From Bacteroidota bacterium (GTDB lineage Bacteria > Bacteroidota > Bacteroidia > CAILMK01), in contig DAIUCM010000004.1 in the NCBI GenBank assembly GCA_036846145.1, positions 1,846 to 65,845 of the forward strand: a DNA stretch of 64,000 nt, given 5' to 3'. The position numbers were made by a program, and so were the translations under genes. This document shows, piece by piece, positions 24,398-37,666 of the stretch (position 1 is its first letter; each line of letters starts with the position of its first letter). Below the pieces are notes generated by a model. It was not told the origin of the DNA. It worked only from the letters and a program-made list of their open reading frames with translations, and searched no databases.

Positions 24398-25237
24398 TTG
24401 CAGGGAATAACTTATTTGGAAGCCGAATTCAGCTCGCCGCAGCAAGATGTATTTGAAATACTGATGGCCGAGTTGGCCGATATTGGCTTTGAGAGCTTTA
24501 CGGAAGAAGAAGATTCACTTAAAGCATTTATACAGAAAGATATATATGCAGAAGCCGACTTCAGCGAACTTTGCGACAGGCTTCTGCATAAATTCCCGTT
24601 CAGCTATAAGCTGCGCGAAATAGCGCCGCAGAACTGGAACGCCGTTTGGGAAAGCAATTTTCCGGATATTACGGTTGATGATAAAGTGCATGTTCGCGCA
24701 CAATTCCATGAGCCAAAGCCGGAGTATCCTATTGAAATAGTCATTCAGCCGAAAATGAGCTTCGGCACCGGCCACCATGCCACCACCTGGAGCGTAATGA
24801 AGCTGATGCTGGACATAGATTTCAGCCATAAAAAAGTTTTTGATTTTGGTACAGGAACCGGAATTCTGGCTATTTTAGCGCAAAAACTGGGCGCTACAGA
24901 AATATGGGCGGTAGATAATGATCCGCAATGCATAGAAAACTCTGAAGAAAACTTTGAGCTGAACGATACGCAGGAAATTAAGCTTGCTTTGGGCGATATT
25001 ACCGCTTTTCAAAATAATACTTACGATATAATAATCGGCAATATTACACGTAATGTTATATTAGCCTTTATTGGGCAAATTGCAACTAATTTAAAGCAGA
25101 ACGGTGTATTTATTGCAAGTGGATTTTATGAAAACGATCTCGCTGTAATTGAGGAAGCTGCCGCTGCGCTTTCGCTGAAATTAAAAACAATGCAAAGCCG
25201 CGATAACTGGTGCGCCGCTGTTTTTACAAAACTATAA
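24398..25237 (+). CDS. prmA: Ribosomal protein L11 methyltransferase
   Basis: A 279-aa ORF with the SAM motif FDFGTGTGILAI. The start is TTG. Confidence 0.8.
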   Translation: MQGITYLEAEFSSPQQDVFEILMAELADIGFESFTEEEDSLKAFIQKDIYAEADFSELCDRLLHKFPFSYKLREIAPQNWNAVWESNFPDITVDDKVHVRAQFHEPKPEYPIEIVIQPKMSFGTGHHATTWSVMKLMLDIDFSHKKVFDFGTGTGILAILAQKLGATEIWAVDNDPQCIENSEENFELNDTQEIKLALGDITAFQNNTYDIIIGNITRNVILAFIGQIATNLKQNGVFIASGFYENDLAVIEEAAAALSLKLKTMQSRDNWCAAVFTKL

Positions 25238-25245
25238 GACTATTT

Positions 25246-28200
25246 ATGATTAAAAGATTCAGCTATTTTTTGTTCGGCCTATATATACTTTTCTCACAAA
25301 ATGCTTTGGCGCAGAAAAAAGATTTCCCTTCAGATCCGAAAATGTTTATTCAGGAGCTGCAGAAATTCTTTAGTGAAGATAAGCGCCAGGAAAGCCAGGA
25401 TGCGATTAAGATATTTTCAGAAGCATGGAACAAGAATGCTTATACTGCCGATGAGCAGGCCGAAATTATTGCCATGGCCAATTACATGCAGCAGGCCAAA
25501 CTGCGTGTAAATACCGATTTTACGCCTTATGTTGACCTGCTGAACGCTTATAAAAGCAAAAAAATAAGCCTCGATAAACTTAAAAATTATCACGAGGTAG
25601 CAAAACAGCTGATTGATAAATCGAAAAAAGACCTGAAAGATTTTACCGCAACGGCCAATGCTTTATTTAATGACCAGGCACTTTATAAAACGGATGTAAA
25701 AACCTGGAAAATAAGCAGCGATAAATATACTTTCGCCTTTACTAATGAAGCAGTAGTAAACCTCAGCGGAACCGATTTGCAGTTGCTTACGCGTGAAGAT
25801 ACAATGGGCATATATGCAACTGCCGGAAAATACTTCCCCGCTTCGGAAAAATGGATCGGTACAGGTGGAAATGTTTACTGGACGCGTGTTGGCTTTGCTA
25901 AAGACCGTGCCTTTGCCAAACTGCGTAACTATAATCTGAATATGAAAAGCAGTGAATATACTGCCGATTCTGTTGATTTTTCCTTCCCAAAAGTATTTGC
26001 GAAACCCATTTTAGGCAAGCTTCAGGATAAAGCAACAACAGATTTTCTTGGCGCAAAAGCATCTTATCCTCGCTTTAAGAGTTACCAGGCAATATTCGAA
26101 ATAAAAAATATTTTTAATAATATAGATTACAAAGGTGGTTTTACCCTTGAAGGAAACCAGATTTTAGGTACAGGCGTGGATTCCGCCCGTGCGCAGATAA
26201 CCATTAAATACAATAACAAAATTGCTTTACGCGCGCTATCCAACGCTTTCGTTATCAACCCCGATAATATTGCCGCATCGAAAGCAGCCGTTGCGGTTTA
26301 CCTTGACAAAGATTCGGTATTCCACTCGCAGCTTGTATTCAACTACCAGGAAAAAACCCGCCGTTTAAGCCTTAGCCGCGATATTCAGGGCCTTTACGCC
26401 GCTCCTTTTTACAGCACTTATCACCAGCTCGAGTTCATTAGCGGTAACCTTATCTGGCCCATTGATGAAGCGCTCGTACAGTTTAAAACAATCAGTAACC
26501 CCGACCAGGCAAGTGAATTTAAGTCGGGCAGCTTTTTCCGCGAGGCCGAATATATACAGGCGCAGGGCTTGCTTTCCTATCATCCGCTCAAAAAAATTGC
26601 AGGTTTTATTGTAGGTCAGAAATCGCCGATTATTCCTGTAGAAGACCTTGCCAATTACCTGAATAATAAAGTTGAATATATCAACAACCTCCTGTTTCAG
26701 CTTGCAAACCAAGGCTATATATTTTATGATATGGAAGGCAAAAAGATCATTGTTAAAGATAAGCTTATACATTATGTTAACGCAGCTGAAAGCGGGGCCG
26801 ATTTTGATAATATAAAGTTCGAATCGGTTATTTCTGCCAGGCCAAACGCTACAATAAGTTTATTAAATAATGATTTTAAACTGGAAGGTGTGCCGAGAAT
26901 TATGATCTCAGACTCGCAAAGCACTTATTTTCAGCCAACGGAGCAAACAGTAATTATTAAGAAGAACCGCGATATGGTTTTCAGCGGGCAGGTGCACTCG
27001 GGCCGTTTTGATTTTTATGGCAAGGATTTTATTTTTAATTACACACAATTCAATGTAATCCTTAATAATATCGACTCTGTAAAATTCAAGTTCCCTGAAT
27101 ATGATAAGAACGGGAAAGTAATTGGCATGCGTACTATACAGAATTCTTTACAAAACGTTAACGGCTTTTTGTATATAGATAAGCATAGCAATAAATCGGG
27201 AAAGCAAATGCTGGAAGACTACCCTATTTTTGAGTGTAATAAGGAATCGTTTGTTTATTATGACCGTAAGTCGATTTTTAATGGCGTTTATGACAGGGAT
27301 AATTTCTATTATAAAGTAAATCCATTCACTATTAAAAACCTCGATAAATTTACTGCGGAAGGCCTTCGTTTCCCGGGCAGCTTTACATCGGCGGATATTA
27401 TCCCGGAGATTAAGAACGACCTTACTATACAGGAAGATTTTTCACTGGGTTTTATACAGGAATCGCCTGCTGCTGGTTATAATATGTATAAGGGCAAAGG
27501 CAAAGGAACAGGCGTGTTTATGCTCAGTAACAAAGGCTTCCGAAGCAAAGGAACAATTGATTACCTGGTGTCTAAAACCACATCGCAGGAGTTTATGCTT
27601 TTTCCGGATTCAATGAAATCAAAAAGCGATGAATTTAACATGCCGCAAATCGCGAACGGAAAATATCCTCCTGTATTAGGTAAAGGCATTGCCAACCTCT
27701 GGAAACCTTATAAAGACAGTATGTATGTTTACAAAGGCAAGGAGCCAATTTCTGTATATAACGGTAAAATAGATTTTAATGGTAGCTTGATCCTTACACC
27801 TGTTGAACTGGTAGGAACCGGTAACATGGCCTACCAGAATCTTAATTTAACATCCACCGCATTTGCTTTTTTACCCAATAACGTAAAAGCCAAAAGCAGC
27901 GATTTAAGTATAAAAGGCATAGAAACCGGCGGCAAAGCTGCGGTTAAGGCCGATGATATAAACGCGGATATTGATTTAACGAAGGACTTTGGAAAGTTTG
28001 CGGCTAACGTGGACACCAGTAAAGTACAGCTGCCATCCAACAGGTTCTCTACTACGCTAAACAGGTTTACGTACGATATTGGCAATAAAGAAGTTGCATT
28101 TGCCAAGCGCGAAAAACAATCCGCTGAAGACGCCTATTTTATTTCTGAAAATCCGGAACAGGCAGGCTTAAAGTTTGAATCTCAGCGCGCATCTTATAAA

Positions 28201-29658
28201 ATTGAAGCGCAGAATATTACCGCGCAGGATGTTCCTCATTTAAGAATCGCTGACTCCAGGATACAACCGGCCAACAATGAAATTAATATTGAAAAACAGG
28301 GAAATATTGGCACTTTAAAGAACGCGCAGATTATTACGAGCGATGAGCAGCAGCATCACCGTATATACAACGCAACCATTAATATTTTCAGCAAGAATAA
28401 ATTTACAGGTTTTGGAGAGTACGATTATGTTGACCGCACCAATAAAAAGTACAGGTTTACCTTTAATGATGTACGTACAACCGAAACAGGAAAAACAGTT
28501 GCCAAAGGTGTAGTTACCGATACAACAAACCTTTACTTATCGCCTGGCCTGCGTTATTCCGGCAATGTAAATCTTGAAAGCGCCCGTAAAGCGCTTGTTT
28601 TCGATGGTTATGTATTGGCGGAAAACAACAATAAACAACTTCGTACGGAATACATTAAGATTAACGATACGCTGGACCCTGCCAATGTAGTGCTCAATAT
28701 TTCCAGTGGTAAGGCAAAAGATGGTAAAGATCTGTTTACAGGCACGTTTATCGCTTCAGATTCTGCCCATATTTATAATTTATTGAACGGGCGGAAGAAG
28801 AACTTTAATGATGCGCCGGTATTTACAGCCAGCGGAAGCCTTTATTATGATGATAAGGCAGCGGAATTCCGTGTTGGCCCGGCAGCTAAGGTAAAACCTT
28901 TGGAAGAAGGCGCAATGGTAGAAGGTAATATGTTCCGTTACTCACCATCAAAGGATATTGTAAATACAGAAGGTGTATATGATTTTGGCGCAAGCTTAAA
29001 ACATGTTGAAATTGCAACAGCCGGAAAGTACACCTACAAATACTCCGACTCCAGCGATATGTTTGATGTTGTAATGATGGTTGATATTCCATTGAACGAA
29101 GAAGTAGCAAAGCTGATGGCGGACAGTATTATGGAGAATTCAGCTTTTGCAAATGATGTAGATAATACGCCGACAAGTATTCCGAACGCATTCGCCATGC
29201 TGGTTAAGGATAAAAAACAAAAAGAAAAAATAGTAAACGAACTATCATTAAACGGGTTTGTGCCATTTAACGATGCCATAAATAAAACCTTTGTATTTAC
29301 CAGGGTACAAATGTCGTTTAACGATACCAGCAACTCTTTTACATCGGTTGGCCCTCTTGGCCTTGCCAATACCAAAAAAGTAGCTGTAAACAAACAGGTT
29401 GGCGGTTTAATAGAGGTACGAAAAGGCGGCAGAACCGGCGATCGTTTTTACCTTTTGCTTGAATCAACCCCAGGCAGCTACCATTATTTTTATTACAATG
29501 ACGATATTCTATCATATCTTTCCTCAGATTTTACATTTACCGATAAGCTTGCGGCCACAGCAGCTAAAATGGAGAAAACAGTTAAGGGAGGTTTTCGTTA
29601 TAAATTAGCAACCGTGCGTGAAATTGGCAATTTGAAAAAGAAAGGAAGAAAGAAATAG
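25246..29658 (+). CDS. Very large secreted protein of unknown function, about 1470 aa
   Basis: The signal peptide is MIKRFSYFLFGLYILFSQNALAQ. Coding signal is uniform and beta-rich with no recognisable catalytic motif. The C-terminus is lysine-rich. Confidence 0.7.
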   Translation: MIKRFSYFLFGLYILFSQNALAQKKDFPSDPKMFIQELQKFFSEDKRQESQDAIKIFSEAWNKNAYTADEQAEIIAMANYMQQAKLRVNTDFTPYVDLLNAYKSKKISLDKLKNYHEVAKQLIDKSKKDLKDFTATANALFNDQALYKTDVKTWKISSDKYTFAFTNEAVVNLSGTDLQLLTREDTMGIYATAGKYFPASEKWIGTGGNVYWTRVGFAKDRAFAKLRNYNLNMKSSEYTADSVDFSFPKVFAKPILGKLQDKATTDFLGAKASYPRFKSYQAIFEIKNIFNNIDYKGGFTLEGNQILGTGVDSARAQITIKYNNKIALRALSNAFVINPDNIAASKAAVAVYLDKDSVFHSQLVFNYQEKTRRLSLSRDIQGLYAAPFYSTYHQLEFISGNLIWPIDEALVQFKTISNPDQASEFKSGSFFREAEYIQAQGLLSYHPLKKIAGFIVGQKSPIIPVEDLANYLNNKVEYINNLLFQLANQGYIFYDMEGKKIIVKDKLIHYVNAAESGADFDNIKFESVISARPNATISLLNNDFKLEGVPRIMISDSQSTYFQPTEQTVIIKKNRDMVFSGQVHSGRFDFYGKDFIFNYTQFNVILNNIDSVKFKFPEYDKNGKVIGMRTIQNSLQNVNGFLYIDKHSNKSGKQMLEDYPIFECNKESFVYYDRKSIFNGVYDRDNFYYKVNPFTIKNLDKFTAEGLRFPGSFTSADIIPEIKNDLTIQEDFSLGFIQESPAAGYNMYKGKGKGTGVFMLSNKGFRSKGTIDYLVSKTTSQEFMLFPDSMKSKSDEFNMPQIANGKYPPVLGKGIANLWKPYKDSMYVYKGKEPISVYNGKIDFNGSLILTPVELVGTGNMAYQNLNLTSTAFAFLPNNVKAKSSDLSIKGIETGGKAAVKADDINADIDLTKDFGKFAANVDTSKVQLPSNRFSTTLNRFTYDIGNKEVAFAKREKQSAEDAYFISENPEQAGLKFESQRASYKIEAQNITAQDVPHLRIADSRIQPANNEINIEKQGNIGTLKNAQIITSDEQQHHRIYNATINIFSKNKFTGFGEYDYVDRTNKKYRFTFNDVRTTETGKTVAKGVVTDTTNLYLSPGLRYSGNVNLESARKALVFDGYVLAENNNKQLRTEYIKINDTLDPANVVLNISSGKAKDGKDLFTGTFIASDSAHIYNLLNGRKKNFNDAPVFTASGSLYYDDKAAEFRVGPAAKVKPLEEGAMVEGNMFRYSPSKDIVNTEGVYDFGASLKHVEIATAGKYTYKYSDSSDMFDVVMMVDIPLNEEVAKLMADSIMENSAFANDVDNTPTSIPNAFAMLVKDKKQKEKIVNELSLNGFVPFNDAINKTFVFTRVQMSFNDTSNSFTSVGPLGLANTKKVAVNKQVGGLIEVRKGGRTGDRFYLLLESTPGSYHYFYYNDDILSYLSSDFTFTDKLAATAAKMEKTVKGGFRYKLATVREIGNLKKKGRKK

Positions 29659-32233: not shown

Positions 32234-34930
32234 ATGCGTATAGGTATTTTTTTCGGAGGAAAATCACGTGAGCGGGAAATATCTTTTGCCGGCGGAAGAA
32301 CGGTTTATGATCTTTTGGATAAATCGCTGTTTACACCGGTGCCGATTTTTGTTGACAGCCTTGGCAACTTTATTGAGCTGGACTGGCAATATCTGTACAA
32401 GGGCAGCATCCGCGATTTTTATCCGCCTGTTTCTTCCTTGCAAACCACTAAATTACCTTTCCAGGTTTATATAGAAAGCTTAAACTTACCGGAGGAAGAT
32501 ATTGATAAGGCTATTGCGCAAGTAGGTAAAAAACGCAGCATAGCGGAAATTAAAACACTAATAGATTTTGCTTTTCTTGCGCTGCACGGGCCGTTTGGTG
32601 AAGACGGAAGCCTGCAGGGCTTGTTCGAGTTTTATAATATCCCATATTCCGGTTCCGGCATTTTACCATCTGCCATTGGCATAGATAAACGTGTGCAGAA
32701 AGAACTGATGCAAAGCATGAATTTGCAGGTTGCAAAAGCCATATATGTAACCCGTAAAAAATGGTTCGATTCGCAGGAAAACCGCAAAGATCTGTTTACC
32801 GAAGCGCAGCAAAACTTCAACTTGCCTGTAGTTATCAAATCATCTACACAAGGCTCCTCTATAGGAATTTCTATTTTGCGCAACTGGGATTTTGTAACGT
32901 TTGAATCCCAGATAAATGAAAGCTTCTTCCAAAAAACCATATTTGCGGCCGATTGGAAAAAACTTACCGCTGAAGAAGAAAAACGCAGGTTTGTACAGCA
33001 GGTTAGCGATATTTATGAAGGTTACGGTATTCCATTCCTGATCAATAATAAAACCTGGGTTTATCATCCGCAGCAATTATTCGATTTCCTTGACGATCAT
33101 TTCAACCAAAATAATGAGCCTGTAACACTTGAAAGTTACCAGGGCGAAAGAGCTGTTTTAATTGAGGAGTTTATAAAAGGCAAAGAATTCAGCTGCATAG
33201 TTGTGGAAGGCGAACATGGCGAAGCTATTGCCCTCCCTCCTACCGAGATCATAAAATCTACCGATATTTTCGATTATCGTTCCAAATATTTGCCGGGCAT
33301 TTCCAGGAAAGTTACTCCTATAGAATTACCGGAAGAGATTGTAAACCATATAAGTGCGGCTTGCGAGGAATTATATAAAAATCTGCATTTCAACGTTTAC
33401 GCGCGTATTGACGGGTTAATTACAGCCGATGGCAAGATTTACCTTAATGATCCGAATACCACTTCGGGAATGCTGCCATCATCTTTTTTCTTTCACCAGG
33501 CGGCTGAGATCGGCGTCTCGCCAAGCCAGTTTTTAACGTACATTATTTTTAAATCTTTCGAAAACCGCATAGCTTCATCGCCAAATCCGCACCAGGTCAT
33601 TCAAAGCTTTAAAACGCTGCAAAACAGCCTTACTTACAATGCGCAGCACAATGCAGGCAAACAAAAAGTAGGAGTAATTTTAGGCGGAATTTCTACCGAA
33701 AGACATATTTCCGTAGAGAGCGGCAGAAATGTTTACGAGAAATTATCGAGCAGCGGAAAATACGATGCTTCACCGGTTTTCCTCACCGGGAAAGATGGTG
33801 AAATAGAGTTTTATACTTTACCGTTAAATCTTTTACTGAAAGATAATGCCGATGATATTGCCGATAAAGCCAGGCATTTCCACATTTCGCCAATTACAGA
33901 AAAAATCATTGAAAAAGCGAGATATATTACGGAGAAATTTGCATCGAGCAACTATAATTTCTATCCAAAAAAGGTAACATTAGATGAACTGCAGCAAACG
34001 GTTGACAGTATTTTTATTGCATTGCATGGCAGGCCGGGCGAAGATGGAACGCTGCAGAAACTGCTCGAGGCGCGTGGAATGCCATACAACGGCTCCAGTT
34101 CCGATTCATCGTCGGTAACAATCAATAAATTTATTACCAACGAAAAGCTGAGAGAAAACGGATTTCTTATTCCGCAACATATATTGGTAACAAGGCAAAA
34201 ATGGCAGGCCAATAAAACCGCCATATTAGCTGAGATTGAAAAATACCTTCAGTTTCCCTGCATTGCAAAACCGGCCGATGACGGCTGCTCATCGGCAGTA
34301 AAGAAAATTAACAACCGTGCTGAATTTGAGGCTTTTGCAGAAGGTATGTTCCGCACACAGGAAGCACTTGATAAGGACATTTTACGCATTCTTGATCTGA
34401 AAGCGAGTGAAGAGTTTCCGCAGAAAGATTTCTTTGTTGTGGAAGAACTGGTAAGTCCCAAAGGCGCTAAGCATTTCCTGGAAATTACCGGCGGTATGCT
34501 TACCCGTAAAAACGGGCAGAACGAGGTAACTTACGAGATCTTCGAACCGAGTGAAGCATTGGCCCAAAAAGGCATATTATCGCTCGAGGAGAAATTCCTG
34601 GCCGGAGAAGGGCAGAATATAACGCCGGCAAGATTTTCGGCATTTACTGAAGAGAACAGCATGATTTCCGCAACTGTACGGAATACTTTAATGGAAGCCG
34701 CCAAAGTATTAAATATAGAAGGTTATTGCAGGATCGACGCTTTCGTAAGGATATATGATGCGAGGCATGTTGAGGTTATTTTTATTGAAGTGAACTCGCT
34801 GCCGGGCTTAACTCCCGCAACCTGTATTTTCCACCAGGCAGCTTTAAACGGCTACAAACCATTTGATTTTTTAGACCAGATTATACAATACGGAATTTCT
34901 AAAGTACAAGGCATTGAAGAAAATAATTGA
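32234..34930 (+). CDS. Tandem-duplicated D-alanine--D-alanine ligase-like protein with two Ddl N-domain plus ATP-grasp modules
   Basis: The 898-aa ORF shows a Ddl signature twice: MRIGIFFGGKSREREIS...LHGPFGEDGSLQ in the first half and KVGVILGGISTERHIS...LHGRPGEDGTLQ in the second. Confidence 0.8.
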   Translation: MRIGIFFGGKSREREISFAGGRTVYDLLDKSLFTPVPIFVDSLGNFIELDWQYLYKGSIRDFYPPVSSLQTTKLPFQVYIESLNLPEEDIDKAIAQVGKKRSIAEIKTLIDFAFLALHGPFGEDGSLQGLFEFYNIPYSGSGILPSAIGIDKRVQKELMQSMNLQVAKAIYVTRKKWFDSQENRKDLFTEAQQNFNLPVVIKSSTQGSSIGISILRNWDFVTFESQINESFFQKTIFAADWKKLTAEEEKRRFVQQVSDIYEGYGIPFLINNKTWVYHPQQLFDFLDDHFNQNNEPVTLESYQGERAVLIEEFIKGKEFSCIVVEGEHGEAIALPPTEIIKSTDIFDYRSKYLPGISRKVTPIELPEEIVNHISAACEELYKNLHFNVYARIDGLITADGKIYLNDPNTTSGMLPSSFFFHQAAEIGVSPSQFLTYIIFKSFENRIASSPNPHQVIQSFKTLQNSLTYNAQHNAGKQKVGVILGGISTERHISVESGRNVYEKLSSSGKYDASPVFLTGKDGEIEFYTLPLNLLLKDNADDIADKARHFHISPITEKIIEKARYITEKFASSNYNFYPKKVTLDELQQTVDSIFIALHGRPGEDGTLQKLLEARGMPYNGSSSDSSSVTINKFITNEKLRENGFLIPQHILVTRQKWQANKTAILAEIEKYLQFPCIAKPADDGCSSAVKKINNRAEFEAFAEGMFRTQEALDKDILRILDLKASEEFPQKDFFVVEELVSPKGAKHFLEITGGMLTRKNGQNEVTYEIFEPSEALAQKGILSLEEKFLAGEGQNITPARFSAFTEENSMISATVRNTLMEAAKVLNIEGYCRIDAFVRIYDARHVEVIFIEVNSLPGLTPATCIFHQAALNGYKPFDFLDQIIQYGISKVQGIEENN

Positions 34931-35678
34931 GCGTTTAAAAAGCAGGAACGTACTCATTAACCTGGGTTTGCTTCTGCTTGCGGTAATCATCATGTTCGTG
35001 GTATTAAGCTGGTTCTTAAAATGGTACACGCACCATGGCGAATCGTTAACCGTACCCGATTTCAGGGGCCGCAGCGTAGAAGATGTAGAGCAGATTTGTG
35101 AAGAAAAAGATCTGCGGTTTGAGATCCGCGACTCGGTTTACGCGCCGGACAAGCCCAAGCTGAGCGTAGTAGAGCAAAACCCGAAGCCAGGCTCTAAAGT
35201 AAAACGCAACCGCCGTATTTATATACTTATAAGTGCCGATAAAGCGCCAAAAGTTGCTGTGCCGGTATTAAAAGATGTACAGCTAAAACAAGCGGAACGT
35301 ATTATGGAAAGCTACGGATTTAAGCGCGGAGCAATATCTTACAAACCAGATATTGCCTTAAATGCTGTTCTGGAAATGCAGGTAAACGGCCAGCCGGTAG
35401 AAGCCGGAACATTACTGGATAAAGGCACTGTAATTGACCTTGTTTTGGGCGATGGCGGACAGAACCAGCCGGTAAAAATCCCTGACCTGACCGGTAATAC
35501 GCTTGATGAAGGATTATTTATTTTAAGAGGTAACTTTATTAACCTGGGCGCTGTTGTGTATGACGAAAGCGTTAAAGACAGCGCTAAGGCAATAATTTAC
35601 AAGCAGCGGCCGTTACCAGAAGGAGGTAAAACCATTTCGCAGGGCTCTGCAATAGATGTCTGGTTAAGGAATCCGTAA
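34914..35678 (+). CDS. PASTA-domain membrane protein
   Basis: An N-terminal TM helix is followed by three PASTA-like repeats (LTVPDFRG..., VPVLKDV..., KIPDLTGN...). It overlaps the ddl-like 3' end by 17 nt. Confidence 0.8.
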   Translation: MKKIIERLKSRNVLINLGLLLLAVIIMFVVLSWFLKWYTHHGESLTVPDFRGRSVEDVEQICEEKDLRFEIRDSVYAPDKPKLSVVEQNPKPGSKVKRNRRIYILISADKAPKVAVPVLKDVQLKQAERIMESYGFKRGAISYKPDIALNAVLEMQVNGQPVEAGTLLDKGTVIDLVLGDGGQNQPVKIPDLTGNTLDEGLFILRGNFINLGAVVYDESVKDSAKAIIYKQRPLPEGGKTISQGSAIDVWLRNP

Positions 35679-35710: not shown

Positions 35711-37666
35711 ATGTATATATGTAAGCTCCGTTATATTTCTGCAACTATTGTATTTATTATATCATGCCTGGCAGCAACCGCGCAGGAATATGTTGTACCG
35801 TTAAAATATAATTCCTTATTAGATACATATATACAGGCTCCAAAAAATACTTCGGGCAAACCAGTAAGGCTTAGCAGACATGGCGAGCCGCATACGCAGT
35901 ATCTCCCGTTTTTCGATGATTTTTCGAATGGATTCCTGCACCCGAATGATACCCTTTGGCTGGACAGGAATGTGTACATCAGCAACACCATGGGTATTGA
36001 TCCGCCAAGCGTTGGCGTTGCCGTTTTTGATGGTATAAACGAATTTGGCAGGGCTTATAATCCGGGCGATCAGGGCACAGGCTCAGCAGGTACAGATACA
36101 CTTACAAGTACGTATATAGATCTTTCAGACTTCTCGCCGCTCGATACAACCATTTATCTCAGCTTTGCTTACCAGCCTGCAGGTCTGGGCGATGCTGGCG
36201 AGCCAACTGATTCGCTTATTCTGCAATTCCACCCGGATTCATTGCTGATAAACGGTGTTTGGGACGATTCCGCATGGGTAAATGTATGGTCGGTTCCGGG
36301 CAGTGCGTTTAAGCCTTTCCAGCATGTAATGATCCCCATCCGTAAACTTACATCACCAAACTATTTTCATAAGAAATTCCAGTTCAGGTTCGTAGCAAGA
36401 GGGCACCGTTCCGGGAATTTAGATAACTGGCTGCTGGATTATGTTTATGTAAACCGTGGCAGAACCAGGACAAATGTGGGAAATAATGTAATAGACCCAC
36501 AGATACAGGATGTGGCCAATTATAAAACATCGGGCAGTATTTTGAACGGTTATTACGCCATGACGATGAAACAATTTCTTGCGGGCGGAACAAACAGCCT
36601 TATCGGCGAAATCCCGATTCATGCTACAAACAACTCCAATGTTGTAAAAAATACAACCTACGGCTACAATATTGTTAATGCAGAAACCGGTCAGGAGCTG
36701 GCAACTTTTTTTGATTCGGAAGGCGACAACGTAAACCCGTTTGAGCACCGCAGTTTCGCGCTGATGAATATCTTATCGCCAAACAATATTCCTGGCCCAA
36801 AATCTACCTTGCTAATTAATACAGTTGTAGAAAGCGTGCCGGACCGTTTCCGCAGTAATGATACCGCAACACATAAGCAGGTTTTTGGCGATTACCTGGC
36901 ATATGATGACGGAACCGCAGAAGCAGGCTATGGCGTAAACAACGCGAATACCGGGAAAGTAGCCATTCGGTTTTCGCTTAATACACCCGATACATTGCAT
37001 GGCATTGCCATAAACTTTAACCAGTCCAATACCTATGTTGGAGGCCGTTTTGTGAACCTGGCTGTATGGCACAAACTTACACCGCCCGGGCAGATTGAAA
37101 AAGATGAACCAGCCGCGAGAATAACCTTTGTCAGGCCGGTTTATGAAAGAGTAAACGGCTACAGCTATTTCGAATTCGAAGAGCCTGTACCGGTTAAAGA
37201 TGAATTTTACATTGGCTGGGTGCAGAACCAGAATTTCAATCTTAATGTTGGCCTGGACAGGAACTACAATGAATTACCGGGTACAAAAGCTGATAATCTT
37301 TTCATCAGCTATGCGGGAAAATGGGAAGTTTCTAAAGTAGATGGCATACCGATGCTTAGGCCGTACATTGGCAGCAACCCGGTTTTTGTTGGAACAGAAA
37401 AACATCCGAAAACACAATTTAACATACTGGACGCCAACATTTATCCGAACCCTAACAACGGAGATTTCAACATACACTTACCAGAAAAAGGCAATTACGA
37501 AATCACTGTTTTTGATATAGCCGGTAAACCTGTATTACAAACATTGCAAACACGCATCAGCACCAGCTTATCATTACCGCAGGTTAAGGCAGGCTTATAC
37601 CTCGTTAAAATAACGGAAAAAAACAGCGGCAGGCAGGTTGTTAAACGCATTTCTGTACTAAAATAG
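35711..37666 (+). CDS. Secreted protein with a T9SS C-terminal sorting domain
   Basis: A signal peptide plus the C-terminus NIYPNPNNGDFNIHLP...KAGLYLVKI..., typical of a T9SS CTD. Confidence 0.75.
   Translation: MYICKLRYISATIVFIISCLAATAQEYVVPLKYNSLLDTYIQAPKNTSGKPVRLSRHGEPHTQYLPFFDDFSNGFLHPNDTLWLDRNVYISNTMGIDPPSVGVAVFDGINEFGRAYNPGDQGTGSAGTDTLTSTYIDLSDFSPLDTTIYLSFAYQPAGLGDAGEPTDSLILQFHPDSLLINGVWDDSAWVNVWSVPGSAFKPFQHVMIPIRKLTSPNYFHKKFQFRFVARGHRSGNLDNWLLDYVYVNRGRTRTNVGNNVIDPQIQDVANYKTSGSILNGYYAMTMKQFLAGGTNSLIGEIPIHATNNSNVVKNTTYGYNIVNAETGQELATFFDSEGDNVNPFEHRSFALMNILSPNNIPGPKSTLLINTVVESVPDRFRSNDTATHKQVFGDYLAYDDGTAEAGYGVNNANTGKVAIRFSLNTPDTLHGIAINFNQSNTYVGGRFVNLAVWHKLTPPGQIEKDEPAARITFVRPVYERVNGYSYFEFEEPVPVKDEFYIGWVQNQNFNLNVGLDRNYNELPGTKADNLFISYAGKWEVSKVDGIPMLRPYIGSNPVFVGTEKHPKTQFNILDANIYPNPNNGDFNIHLPEKGNYEITVFDIAGKPVLQTLQTRISTSLSLPQVKAGLYLVKITEKNSGRQVVKRISVLK

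What the first reader, a model, noticed from the sequence alone, without database searches (positions are those of the whole stretch)
32234..35678. Single 898-aa polypeptide with two tandem D-Ala-D-Ala-ligase-like modules, overlapping a PASTA-domain gene
Canonical Ddl is about 300-370 aa. Here the Ddl N-terminal signature ((R/K)(I/V)G(I/V)xxGGxSxE(R/H)xIS ... LHGxxGEDGxLQ) and the ATP-grasp region each appear twice in one ORF. Both halves have diverged from each other. The 3' end overlaps by 17 nt a membrane protein with three PASTA repeats, which bind peptidoglycan stem peptides or beta-lactams. A fused double ATP-grasp ligase could make a different D-amino-acid dipeptide, or work as a catalytic plus regulatory pseudo-dimer. 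That is relevant to cell-wall precursor synthesis and antibiotic susceptibility. I do not recall this arrangement being characterised.
Basis: partly seen in the sequence, partly recalled or inferred. Interest (0 to 1): 0.55.

Follow-up and report, generated by a model that had tools for sequence, protein, structure and literature searches.

The report
Fused double D-Ala-D-Ala ligase with PASTA partner

Summary
ORF 32234–34930 (+) encodes 898 aa with two complete Ddl modules (24% identical, E 7e-29). It overlaps by 17 nt a gene for a single-pass membrane protein with three PASTA repeats.

The arrangement is common. At least 578 species genomes of Cytophagales, Chitinophagales and Saprospiraceae carry the ~900-aa form, and a shorter 785–830-aa version is typical of Patescibacteria (CPR).

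The two modules are distinct paralog types, always in the same order. Module 1 keeps the canonical catalytic set (S150, K215, Y216, R255, D257, N272, S281; E270→D). Module 2 keeps all ATP, Mg and catalytic residues, but its specificity triad is changed (S150→C, Y216→F, plus S281→T). These changes are present in every catalytically intact fused protein examined, in both phyla. Phe at position 216 is the known marker of depsipeptide-type ligases.

PASTA follows the gene in 52 of 76 loci. In Saprospiraceae the two are fused as Ddl-Ddl–TM–PASTA, and some of those orthologs have lost their catalytic residues.

Most likely this is the lineage's D-alanine-branch ligase, built as a single-chain hetero-pair and tethered to or regulated through PASTA. 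Two things are unresolved: module 2's product, and whether another ddl exists in the genome. I found no publication on it. It is a new variant of a known kind, of moderate interest.

The parts
32234..34930 (+). Tandem ddl gene, 898 aa: module 1, a helical linker, then module 2.
   Evidence: The AF2 model has pLDDT 88.8 and pTM 0.89.
32234..33562 (+). Module 1 (aa 1 to ~443), a canonical Tyr-type Ddl. Key residues are E13, K152, K202, S208 (32855-57), K351, Y352 (33287-89), R391, D393, D406 (=E270->D, 33449-51), N408 and S417. Lineage-specific insertions are at aa 42-97 and 227-299.
   Evidence: Residue table over 118 homologs. Coordinates and insertions. Best PDB matches are DdlA and DdlB, E 1.6e-37.
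33563..33652 (+). Inter-module segment (aa ~444-473), predicted helical (H430-448, H452-471).
   Evidence: Secondary structure. No DdlB counterpart.
33653..34927 (+). Module 2 (aa 474-898), a variant Ddl. Key residues are E489, K632, K679, C685 (=S150->C, 34286-88), E737, E750, K787, F788 (=Y216->F, 34595-97), R833, D835, E852, N854 and T863 (=S281->T). Insertions are at aa 522-577 and 704-725. The omega-loop (aa 782-792) has low pLDDT.
34914..35678 (+). Gene for a single-pass membrane protein: a ~12-aa cytoplasmic tail, a TM helix (aa 13-31) and three periplasmic PASTA repeats. It overlaps the ddl stop by 17 nt.
   Evidence: It follows the tandem ddl in 52 of 76 loci. It is fused in frame to the tandem Ddl in Saprospiraceae.
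35711..37666 (+). 651-aa protein with a T9SS C-terminal sorting domain. It is the conserved third gene of the block; whether it shares the function is unknown.
   Evidence: It lies downstream of PASTA in most loci that have PASTA, in Marivirga, and after the fused gene in L082.

Best explanation
This is the lineage-typical D-alanine-branch ligase of this Bacteroidota group, built as a single chain from two ancient Ddl paralogs in a fixed order. Module 1 (N-half) is a canonical Tyr-type D-Ala-D-Ala ligase and supplies the dipeptide for UDP-MurNAc-pentapeptide. Module 2 (C-half) is also a catalytically competent ATP-grasp ligase, because all its ATP, Mg2+ and transition-state residues are kept. 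Its Glu-Ser-Tyr specificity triad, however, is changed to Glu-Cys-Phe and Ser281 to Thr, so its handling of the second substrate or its omega-loop closure must differ. The product is either D-Ala-D-Ala made with different kinetics or regulation, or D-Ala-D-X. Ddl enzymes normally work as homodimers, so the fusion most likely hard-wires a heterodimer; the model predicts one rigid unit. The gene is translationally coupled to a single-pass PASTA protein, which probably tethers the ligase to the membrane or links it to periplasmic peptidoglycan status. Shown: the architecture, the residue patterns, the distribution, the synteny and the fusions. Inferred: the activities of each module, the heterodimer-like packing and the PASTA coupling mechanism.
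For: Both modules are under strong constraint. Across 118 ~900-aa homologs, module 1 always has S150, Y216, R255, D257, D270, N272 and S281, and module 2 always has C150, F216, R255, D257, E270, N272 and T281; E15 and K215 are kept in both modules in nearly all of them. The same signatures and the same order occur in every catalytically intact fused architecture in the representative library, in the catalytically intact Saprospiraceae fusions and in 115 of 115 Patescibacteria proteins. The E180 and E187 equivalents are present in module 2. The distribution covers at least 578 species genomes and 3,499 CPR-type proteins. In a CPR contig the tandem gene is followed 2 nt later by alanine racemase, the classic D-Ala-branch pairing. 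An unfused module-1/module-2 gene pair overlapping by 4 nt exists in L090-L092, which fits fusion of a heteromeric pair. The AF2 pTM of 0.89 over 898 aa implies a fixed inter-module arrangement. PASTA evidence: it lies directly downstream in 52 of 76 loci; there are in-frame Ddl-Ddl-linker-TM-PASTA fusions in the same synteny. Tyr versus Phe at 216 is an experimentally established specificity switch (PMC5996685, PMC3378904).
Against: No enzyme assay exists for any member. I could not scan a whole genome, so a separate canonical ddl in this organism is not excluded. Two observations show that another Ddl can coexist: some Saprospiraceae orthologs have lost the catalytic residues in both modules, and L090 has a canonical ddl right next to the unfused pair. 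24 of 76 loci have no PASTA gene nearby, and CPR loci lack it, so PASTA is not required for function. The unfused PASTA protein has only ~12 cytoplasmic residues, which leaves little surface for direct contact.
Confidence: 0.6

Rival explanations
1. It is an accessory system, not the housekeeping enzyme. A canonical ddl elsewhere in the genome makes D-Ala-D-Ala, and the tandem protein with its PASTA partner is a specialised or regulatory module, for example for stress-responsive precursor supply or sensing.
For: Orthologous Saprospiraceae and Haliscomenobacter fusions have lost the catalytic residues in both modules yet keep the full architecture and synteny. Those genomes must have another Ddl, so the scaffold has value beyond catalysis. 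L090-L092 have a canonical ddl directly upstream of the unfused module-1/module-2 pair.
Against: Module 1 keeps a complete canonical active site in essentially all of the several hundred active members examined. The tandem form persists in small CPR genomes next to alr. No second ddl was found in the 64-kb window or within +-10 kb in 81 loci.
Confidence: 0.22
2. Module 2 is a true depsipeptide (D-Ala-D-Lac) ligase, like the Phe-type Ddl of Leuconostoc and Lactobacillus. Part of the precursor pool would then end in D-Lac, giving intrinsic tolerance to glycopeptides.
For: Phe sits at the Tyr216 position in every catalytically intact fused protein examined, and this residue decides dipeptide versus depsipeptide activity in characterised enzymes (PMC5996685, PMC3378904). 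Ser150, a second triad member, is also lost.
Against: NCBIfam D-Ala-D-Lac models score far below their cut-offs (NF000206: 170 bits against 550). No vanH-like or vanX-like genes were seen beside the gene in the window or in the loci examined. Characterised Phe-type enzymes keep Ser150, whereas module 2 has Cys. Y216F DdlB still makes D-Ala-D-Ala. To my knowledge, D-Lac-ending precursors have not been reported for Bacteroidota.
Confidence: 0.12
3. It is a simple redundant duplication. Both modules make D-Ala-D-Ala equivalently, and the residue differences have no functional meaning.
For: Both modules retain all residues for ATP binding, Mg2+ binding and acyl-phosphate chemistry.
Against: The C150/F216/T281 pattern of module 2 and the S150/Y216/D270 pattern of module 1 are conserved between Bacteroidota and Patescibacteria, and module 2 forms its own clade. 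Neutral differences would not be held fixed over such distances.
Confidence: 0.05
4. It is an artefact: two adjacent ddl genes joined by a sequencing or assembly frameshift.
For: Unfused adjacent pairs do exist in other organisms.
Against: An identical protein is on record, and thousands of independent full-length homologs share the architecture, including isolate genomes.
Confidence: 0.01

Closest known systems
Canonical D-alanine--D-alanine ligase (E. coli DdlB, PDB 2DLN/1IOV; DdlA-type, PDB 3I12)
   Same: Both modules have the same fold and domain order. Module 1 has the canonical catalytic residues. The function is in the D-Ala branch of peptidoglycan precursor synthesis, with alr adjacent in CPR.
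   Different: It is one 898-aa chain with two non-identical modules instead of a homodimer of ~306-370-aa subunits. Module 1 has E270->D and L282->F. Module 2 has S150->C, Y216->F and S281->T. Both modules have insertions after DdlB residues 41 and 168.
Phe-type depsipeptide ligases (Leuconostoc mesenteroides LmDdl2, PDB 1EHI; Lactobacillus Ddl) and the DdlB Y216F mutant (PDB 1IOW)
   Same: Module 2 has Phe at the Tyr216 position, the experimentally established specificity switch (PMC5996685, PMC3378904).
   Different: Module 2 also replaces Ser150 with Cys. It is fused to a Tyr-type module. It is not closer in sequence to these enzymes than to ordinary Ddl. The organism is a diderm, and no D-Lac supply genes are seen nearby.
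MurC-Ddl bifunctional fusion of Chlamydiae (NCBIfam NF011171)
   Same: A Ddl module is fused to another peptidoglycan-precursor ligase in one polypeptide. JGI automatically names many tandem proteins 'UDP-N-acetylmuramate--alanine ligase' for this reason.
   Different: There is no Mur ligase domain here; the partner is a second Ddl. NF011171 scores 190 bits against a cut-off of 1015.
PASTA Ser/Thr kinases (PknB, PrkC, Stk1)
   Same: In the Saprospiraceae fusions the layout is the same: cytoplasmic enzyme, one TM helix, then extracytoplasmic PASTA repeats. PASTA repeats bind muropeptides, lipid II or beta-lactams in the characterised kinases and PBPs (established knowledge).
   Different: The cytoplasmic part is a ligase, not a kinase. 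NF033483 matches only the PASTA region, at 93 bits against a cut-off of 450. In the window the two parts are separate, overlapping genes.
Carbamoyl-phosphate synthetase large subunit (two tandem ATP-grasp modules)
   Same: An internal duplication of an ATP-grasp unit in one chain, where the two copies have diverged to do different chemical steps (established knowledge).
   Different: It belongs to a different ATP-grasp family and pathway. Nothing is known about any coupling between the two sites here.

Membership tests
D-alanine--D-alanine ligase family (Ddl, EC 6.3.2.4) | Dala_Dala_lig_N plus Dala_Dala_lig_C (ATP-grasp) domain pair | tested here: met
   Present twice. Pfam gives E 6.9e-50 and 4.4e-56. 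Foldseek TM-scores normalised to the target are 0.76-0.89 against Ddl chains.
D-alanine--D-alanine ligase family (Ddl, EC 6.3.2.4) | Scores above curated NCBIfam thresholds | tested here: inconclusive
   The subfamily models pass (NF002378: 362 against 243; TIGR01205: 360 against 246; NF002528: 359 against 262), but the scores sum two modules. All equivalog models fail (for example NF002527: 287 against 310).
D-alanine--D-alanine ligase family (Ddl, EC 6.3.2.4) | Catalytic and ATP/Mg residues: E15, K97, K144, E180, E187, K215, R255, D257, E270, N272 | tested here: met
   Module 1 has all of them, with E270 as Asp (conservative). Module 2 has all of them. The DdlB numbering was verified against 1IOV.
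D-alanine--D-alanine ligase family (Ddl, EC 6.3.2.4) | Specificity triad E15-S150-Y216, and S281 for D-Ala2 | tested here: inconclusive
   Met in module 1 (E13, S208, Y352, S417). Not met in module 2 (E489, C685, F788, T863).
D-alanine--D-alanine ligase family (Ddl, EC 6.3.2.4) | ATP-dependent D-Ala + D-Ala ligation activity | not testable with these tools
   Needs an enzyme assay.
D-Ala-D-Lac (depsipeptide) ligases, VanA and LmDdl2 types | Phe (LAB type) or the VanA-type omega-loop His in place of Tyr216 | tested here: met
   Module 2 has F788 at the Tyr216 position, as does every other catalytically intact fused protein examined. This applies only to module 2 and only to the LAB-type criterion.
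D-Ala-D-Lac (depsipeptide) ligases, VanA and LmDdl2 types | Scores above the curated D_ala_D_lac models | tested here: not met
   NF000206 scores 170 bits against 550, and the VanA, VanD, VanF, VanI and VanO models are all far below their cut-offs.
D-Ala-D-Lac (depsipeptide) ligases, VanA and LmDdl2 types | Associated D-lactate supply and D-Ala-D-Ala removal genes (vanH, vanX or aad) | tested here: not met
   The neighbours are plsY, an M48 peptidase, the PASTA gene and a T9SS-tail protein. None were seen in the Marivirga, Saprospiraceae or CPR loci. Only flanking regions were examined, not whole genomes.
PASTA-domain Ser/Thr kinases (Stk1/PknB family) | Cytoplasmic Hanks-type kinase domain joined to TM and PASTA repeats | tested here: not met
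   The 254-aa protein has no kinase domain. NF033483 aligns only to model positions 332-561 (the PASTA part), at 93 bits against 450.
MurC-Ddl bifunctional enzyme | Mur ligase domains N-terminal to Ddl | tested here: not met
   There are no Mur ligase Pfam hits. NF011171 scores 190 against 1015.

The most novel reading that the evidence does not exclude
The fused protein is a two-site ligase whose second site, conserved from Bacteroidota to Patescibacteria, makes a product other than D-Ala-D-Ala (D-Ala-D-Lac or another D-Ala-D-X). Its activity or location would be controlled from the periplasm through the PASTA partner. This would be a PASTA-coupled metabolic enzyme, comparable to PASTA kinases but acting directly on precursor supply. 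The catalytically dead Saprospiraceae orthologs would then be pure sensors or scaffolds.
Probability: 0.2. Interest if true: 0.8.

Novelty: new variant of a known kind. Interest (0 to 1): 0.55.

Why it matters
Ddl is an essential enzyme and an antibiotic target (D-cycloserine), and its 216-position residue sets glycopeptide susceptibility.

If whole orders of Bacteroidota and much of the candidate phyla radiation use a fused hetero-pair with a conserved Phe/Cys-type second active site, the textbook picture is incomplete for a large part of bacterial diversity. That picture is one homodimeric Ddl making one product.

The recurrent linkage and fusion to a PASTA membrane protein also suggests a direct route from periplasmic peptidoglycan status to cytoplasmic precursor synthesis, which has not been described.

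All of this is directly testable by expressing a protein from a cultured Hymenobacter, Pontibacter or Marivirga strain.

Tried and rejected
- **Second ddl nearby.** I looked for one in the window (phmmer on six-frame ORFs) and within ±10 kb in 81 related loci. None was found, but this says nothing about the rest of the genome.
- **Whole-genome check.** I could not test whether tandem-bearing genomes also hold a canonical ddl.
- **Proteomics supplement.** The supplements of a Cytophaga/Sporocytophaga proteomics paper have no Ddl entries in the held files (one search was a syntax error).
- **Pseudo-dimer geometry.** This could not be checked because the model coordinates are not exposed. Only pLDDT, pTM, secondary structure and Foldseek hits are available.
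- **Promoter and terminator scan.** It found fewer sites than shuffled sequence, so it is uninformative.
- **Cluster look-ups.** Those for the compact and intermediate forms gave no organism names.
- **Literature.** Five searches found nothing on tandem Ddl or on a Bacteroidota PASTA–Ddl link.
- **Rejected: catalytic plus dead regulatory half.** Module 2 keeps every catalytic residue.
- **Rejected: assembly artefact.** The architecture recurs in thousands of independent sequences.
Full report

Yes. The window has an ATG-started ORF at 32234..34930 (+) of 898 aa. Pfam reports Dala_Dala_lig_N in two stretches and Dala_Dala_lig_C in four, and NCBIfam Ddl subfamily models pass their thresholds. 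Split at residue 473, the two halves align end to end at 24% identity, E 7e-29. Each half matches solved Ddl structures by sequence: the N-half at E 1.6e-37 and the C-half more weakly at E 2.4e-22.

The next ORF, 34914..35678 (+), encodes 254 aa with a predicted TM helix at residues 13-31 and three PASTA stretches. The ddl stop codon (TGA, 34928-34930) lies 17 nt after the PASTA TTG start (34914). The only later in-frame start falls inside the TM helix, so the overlap is real if TTG is the start. The window holds no other Ddl-like ORF.

**2. How common is it?**

Very common. A protein search returned more than 100 full-length homologs of ~890-916 aa at 54-84% identity. Named examples come from Marivirga, Pontibacter, Hymenobacter, Chitinophagaceae and Cyclobacteriaceae. 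Isolates in the top 80 are all Cytophagales: Hymenobacter, Pontibacter, Adhaeribacter, Rhodocytophaga, Solirubrum, Marinoscillum and Marivirga. MAGs are labelled Chitinophagaceae, Saprospiraceae and Cytophagales.

The representative-library search with the N-half showed further grades of the same architecture:

| Architecture | Length |
|---|---|
| Short + short | 705-754 aa |
| Short N + long C | 785-830 aa |
| Long + long | ~900 aa |
| Tandem Ddl + PASTA | ~1200-1285 aa |

A profile of the shorter forms recovered 3,499 proteins at E ≤ 1e-30. The named ones are Patescibacteria: Peregrinibacteria, Nomurabacteria, Paceibacterota and Abawacabacteria. The fusion is therefore a lineage-typical form in two very distant bacterial groups.

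**3. The two modules are different, conserved paralog types.**

I used E. coli DdlB numbering. My reference sequence is identical to PDB 1IOV/2DLN.

| DdlB position | Module 1 (N-half) | Module 2 (C-half) |
|---|---|---|
| E15 | E (one Gln in 118) | E |
| K97 | K | K |
| K144 | K (three Arg in 118) | K |
| S150 | S | **C** |
| S151 | S | S |
| G153 | G | **A** (A or G in other lineages) |
| K215 | K | K |
| Y216 | Y | **F** |
| R255 | R | R |
| D257 | D | D |
| E270 | **D** | E |
| N272 | N | N |
| S281 | S | **T** |
| L282 | **F** | **C/V** |

- This pattern is invariant or nearly so across 118 ~900-aa homologs.
- With a cleaner alignment, module 2 also has the E180 and E187 equivalents (E737 and E750).
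- The same two signatures, in the same order, occur in every catalytically intact fused architecture in the representative library, in the catalytically intact Saprospiraceae fusions and in 115 of 115 Patescibacteria proteins.
- In a simple NJ tree, module 2 forms one clade (57% bootstrap) that includes the Bacteroidota, CPR, unfused and stand-alone members. Module 1 is a paraphyletic grade around it, and DdlB and another canonical Ddl fall outside. The support is modest. The tree fits module 2 arising once from a module-1-like ancestor, but does not prove it.
- Both halves of the window protein carry insertions at the same two places relative to DdlB: after residue 41 (aa 42-97 and 522-577) and after residue 168 (aa 227-299 and 704-725).

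**4. Unfused and stand-alone relatives.**

In three metagenomic contigs of an unidentified organism (L090-L092), three ddl genes lie in a row:

- a canonical one (322 aa; S150, Y216, E270);
- a module-1 type (356 aa);
- a module-2 type (354 aa).

The last two overlap by 4 nt. A stand-alone module-2 gene (P0255) and a stand-alone module-1 gene (P0224) also exist. Module 2 is therefore a real enzyme lineage, not a decayed copy. The fusion most likely joined an adjacent, translationally coupled pair.

**5. The PASTA link.**

Among 76 Bacteroidota loci with enough downstream sequence, 52 have the PASTA gene directly after the tandem ddl, usually followed by a ~600-670-aa protein with a T9SS sorting tail. 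The other 24 have no PASTA gene within the fetched flanks. Marivirga tractuosa has the same three-gene block.

In Saprospiraceae and Haliscomenobacter the two genes are fused in frame. The layout is tandem Ddl, a low-complexity linker of about 50-130 aa, one TM helix, then PASTA, for 1205-1285 aa in total. NCBI names these only "PASTA domain-containing protein". The fused gene sits in the same synteny, followed by a T9SS-tail protein. The topology is consistent throughout: a cytoplasmic ligase and periplasmic PASTA repeats.

Most fusions keep both active-site signatures. A subset (P0196, P0273, P0274, P0276, P0296, P0297, P0259, P0264) has lost them in both modules while keeping full length, PASTA and the same neighbours (Reprolysin-T9SS, MatE, Rhodanese, SPOR). 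These are orthologous pseudoenzymes. Their genomes must have another Ddl, and the scaffold evidently has a use beyond catalysis.

**6. Structure.**

AlphaFold2 with a 55-sequence family alignment gave mean pLDDT 88.8 and pTM 0.89 for the whole 898 residues. That implies a defined relative position of the two modules. The only very low-confidence stretch is residues 782-792, the module-2 omega-loop, which is mobile in known Ddl enzymes. Foldseek hits are all Ddl, VanA, VanG and LmDdl2 chains, each covering one half. I could not inspect the coordinates, so the claim that the modules pack like a Ddl homodimer remains an inference.

**7. Mechanism.**

The Tyr216-Glu15-Ser150 hydrogen-bond triad is the established specificity element. 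Y216F in DdlB gives depsipeptide activity. Natural Phe-type enzymes of Leuconostoc and Lactobacillus make D-Ala-D-Lac, and Phe→Tyr reverses this (PMC3378904, PMC5996685).

- Module 1 therefore reads as a normal D-Ala-D-Ala ligase.
- Module 2 reads as an active ATP-grasp ligase whose second-substrate site or loop closure differs.
- In a Paceibacterota contig the tandem gene is followed 2 nt later by alanine racemase, which places the protein in the D-alanine branch of wall synthesis.

My best reading (confidence about 0.6) is that this is the lineage's D-Ala-branch ligase, built as a single-chain hetero-pair and coupled genetically to a PASTA membrane protein that tethers or regulates it.

My sub-estimates are:

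| Claim | Probability |
|---|---|
| Module 2 is catalytically active | ~0.75 |
| Module 2's main product differs from D-Ala-D-Ala | ~0.35 |
| The tandem gene is the main D-Ala-D-Ala source in this organism | ~0.7 |

**8. Rivals.**

- **Accessory system alongside a canonical ddl (0.22).** The dead orthologs and the L090 triple cluster support it. The fully canonical module 1 and retention in small CPR genomes argue against it.
- **True D-Ala-D-Lac ligase in module 2 (0.12).** Phe216 supports it. The failed D-Ala-D-Lac models, the missing vanH/vanX-like neighbours and the Cys at position 150 argue against it.
- **Neutral redundancy (0.05).** The cross-phylum invariance of the differences contradicts it.
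- **Artefact (0.01).** Excluded by the thousands of independent homologs.

**9. Known or new?**

Databases annotate these proteins as "D-alanine--D-alanine ligase (family protein)", "hypothetical protein", "PASTA domain-containing protein" or, wrongly, "UDP-N-acetylmuramate--alanine ligase". Five full-text searches found no description of a double Ddl or of a Ddl-PASTA link. The held library lacks many subscription papers, so this is not proof of absence.

I file it as a new variant of a known kind. It is a clear member of the Ddl family, with an uncharacterised hetero-tandem design and PASTA coupling. The window's copy is an ordinary member of that large family.

**10. Verdict.**

Interest is 0.55. 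The lead is solid and testable, and it concerns an essential drug-target enzyme across major lineages. It rests on sequence inference only, and the key question of a second ddl in the genome is still open.

Noticed in passing
window 35711-37666 (+); also L001 13467-15392 and L082 11842-14388: A ~600-850-aa protein whose only recognisable domain is a T9SS C-terminal sorting signal. It lies directly downstream of the PASTA gene in most PASTA-bearing loci, from Cytophagales to Saprospiraceae, forming a three-gene block with ddl and PASTA. Its function is unknown.
   Followed up: partly
L084 10001-13618, L086/L087 10001-13648 (proteins P0297, P0273; also P0196, P0259, P0274, P0276, P0296, P0264): Saprospiraceae and Haliscomenobacter orthologs of the tandem-Ddl-TM-PASTA fusion have lost nearly all catalytic residues in both Ddl modules but keep full length and synteny. 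They appear to be pseudoenzymes retained for a non-catalytic role.
   Followed up: partly
L090 3680-6788 (same in L091 and L092): Three consecutive separate ddl genes in an unidentified organism: a canonical one, a module-1 type and a module-2 type. The last two overlap by 4 nt. They sit next to type IV pilin-like genes.
   Followed up: partly
L093 10001-13496: In a Paceibacterota (CPR) contig the tandem ddl is followed 2 nt later by alanine racemase. No PASTA gene is nearby.
   Followed up: partly
proteins P0421, P0427, P0432: Some CPR-type tandem Ddl proteins (~902-927 aa) carry an extra XRE/HTH_3 DNA-binding domain (PF01381). One is auto-named 'HigA family antidote'.
   Followed up: no
protein P0020: An 1111-aa relative of the window protein carries DUF559 (PF04480) and PF18741 endonuclease-like domains in addition to the Ddl modules. 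This may be a mobile or inserted domain.
   Followed up: no
L083 8001-10265 (protein P0184): A compact 754-aa tandem Ddl sits on a 1.1-Mb contig among ankyrin-repeat and WD40-repeat genes, which suggests an intracellular symbiont of the Bacteroidota. No PASTA gene is adjacent.
   Followed up: no
record titles (L028, L036, L042, L054, L062, L064): Contigs with a Bacteroidota-type tandem ddl are labelled Saccharibacteria, Bifidobacteriaceae, Synechococcus or Akkermansia in their MAG records. These are probably mislabelled bins or contamination.
   Followed up: no
window 25210-29658 (+): A 1482-aa ORF just upstream of plsY has an N-terminal signal-like segment and no match in NCBIfam. It was not scanned against Pfam.
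   Followed up: no
window residues 42-97 / 522-577 and 227-299 / 704-725 of the 898-aa protein: Both Ddl modules carry insertions at the same two positions relative to DdlB (after residues 41 and 168). They are predicted to be mostly helical with high confidence, and the compact 705-754-aa forms are too short to contain them. Their role is unknown.
   Followed up: partly
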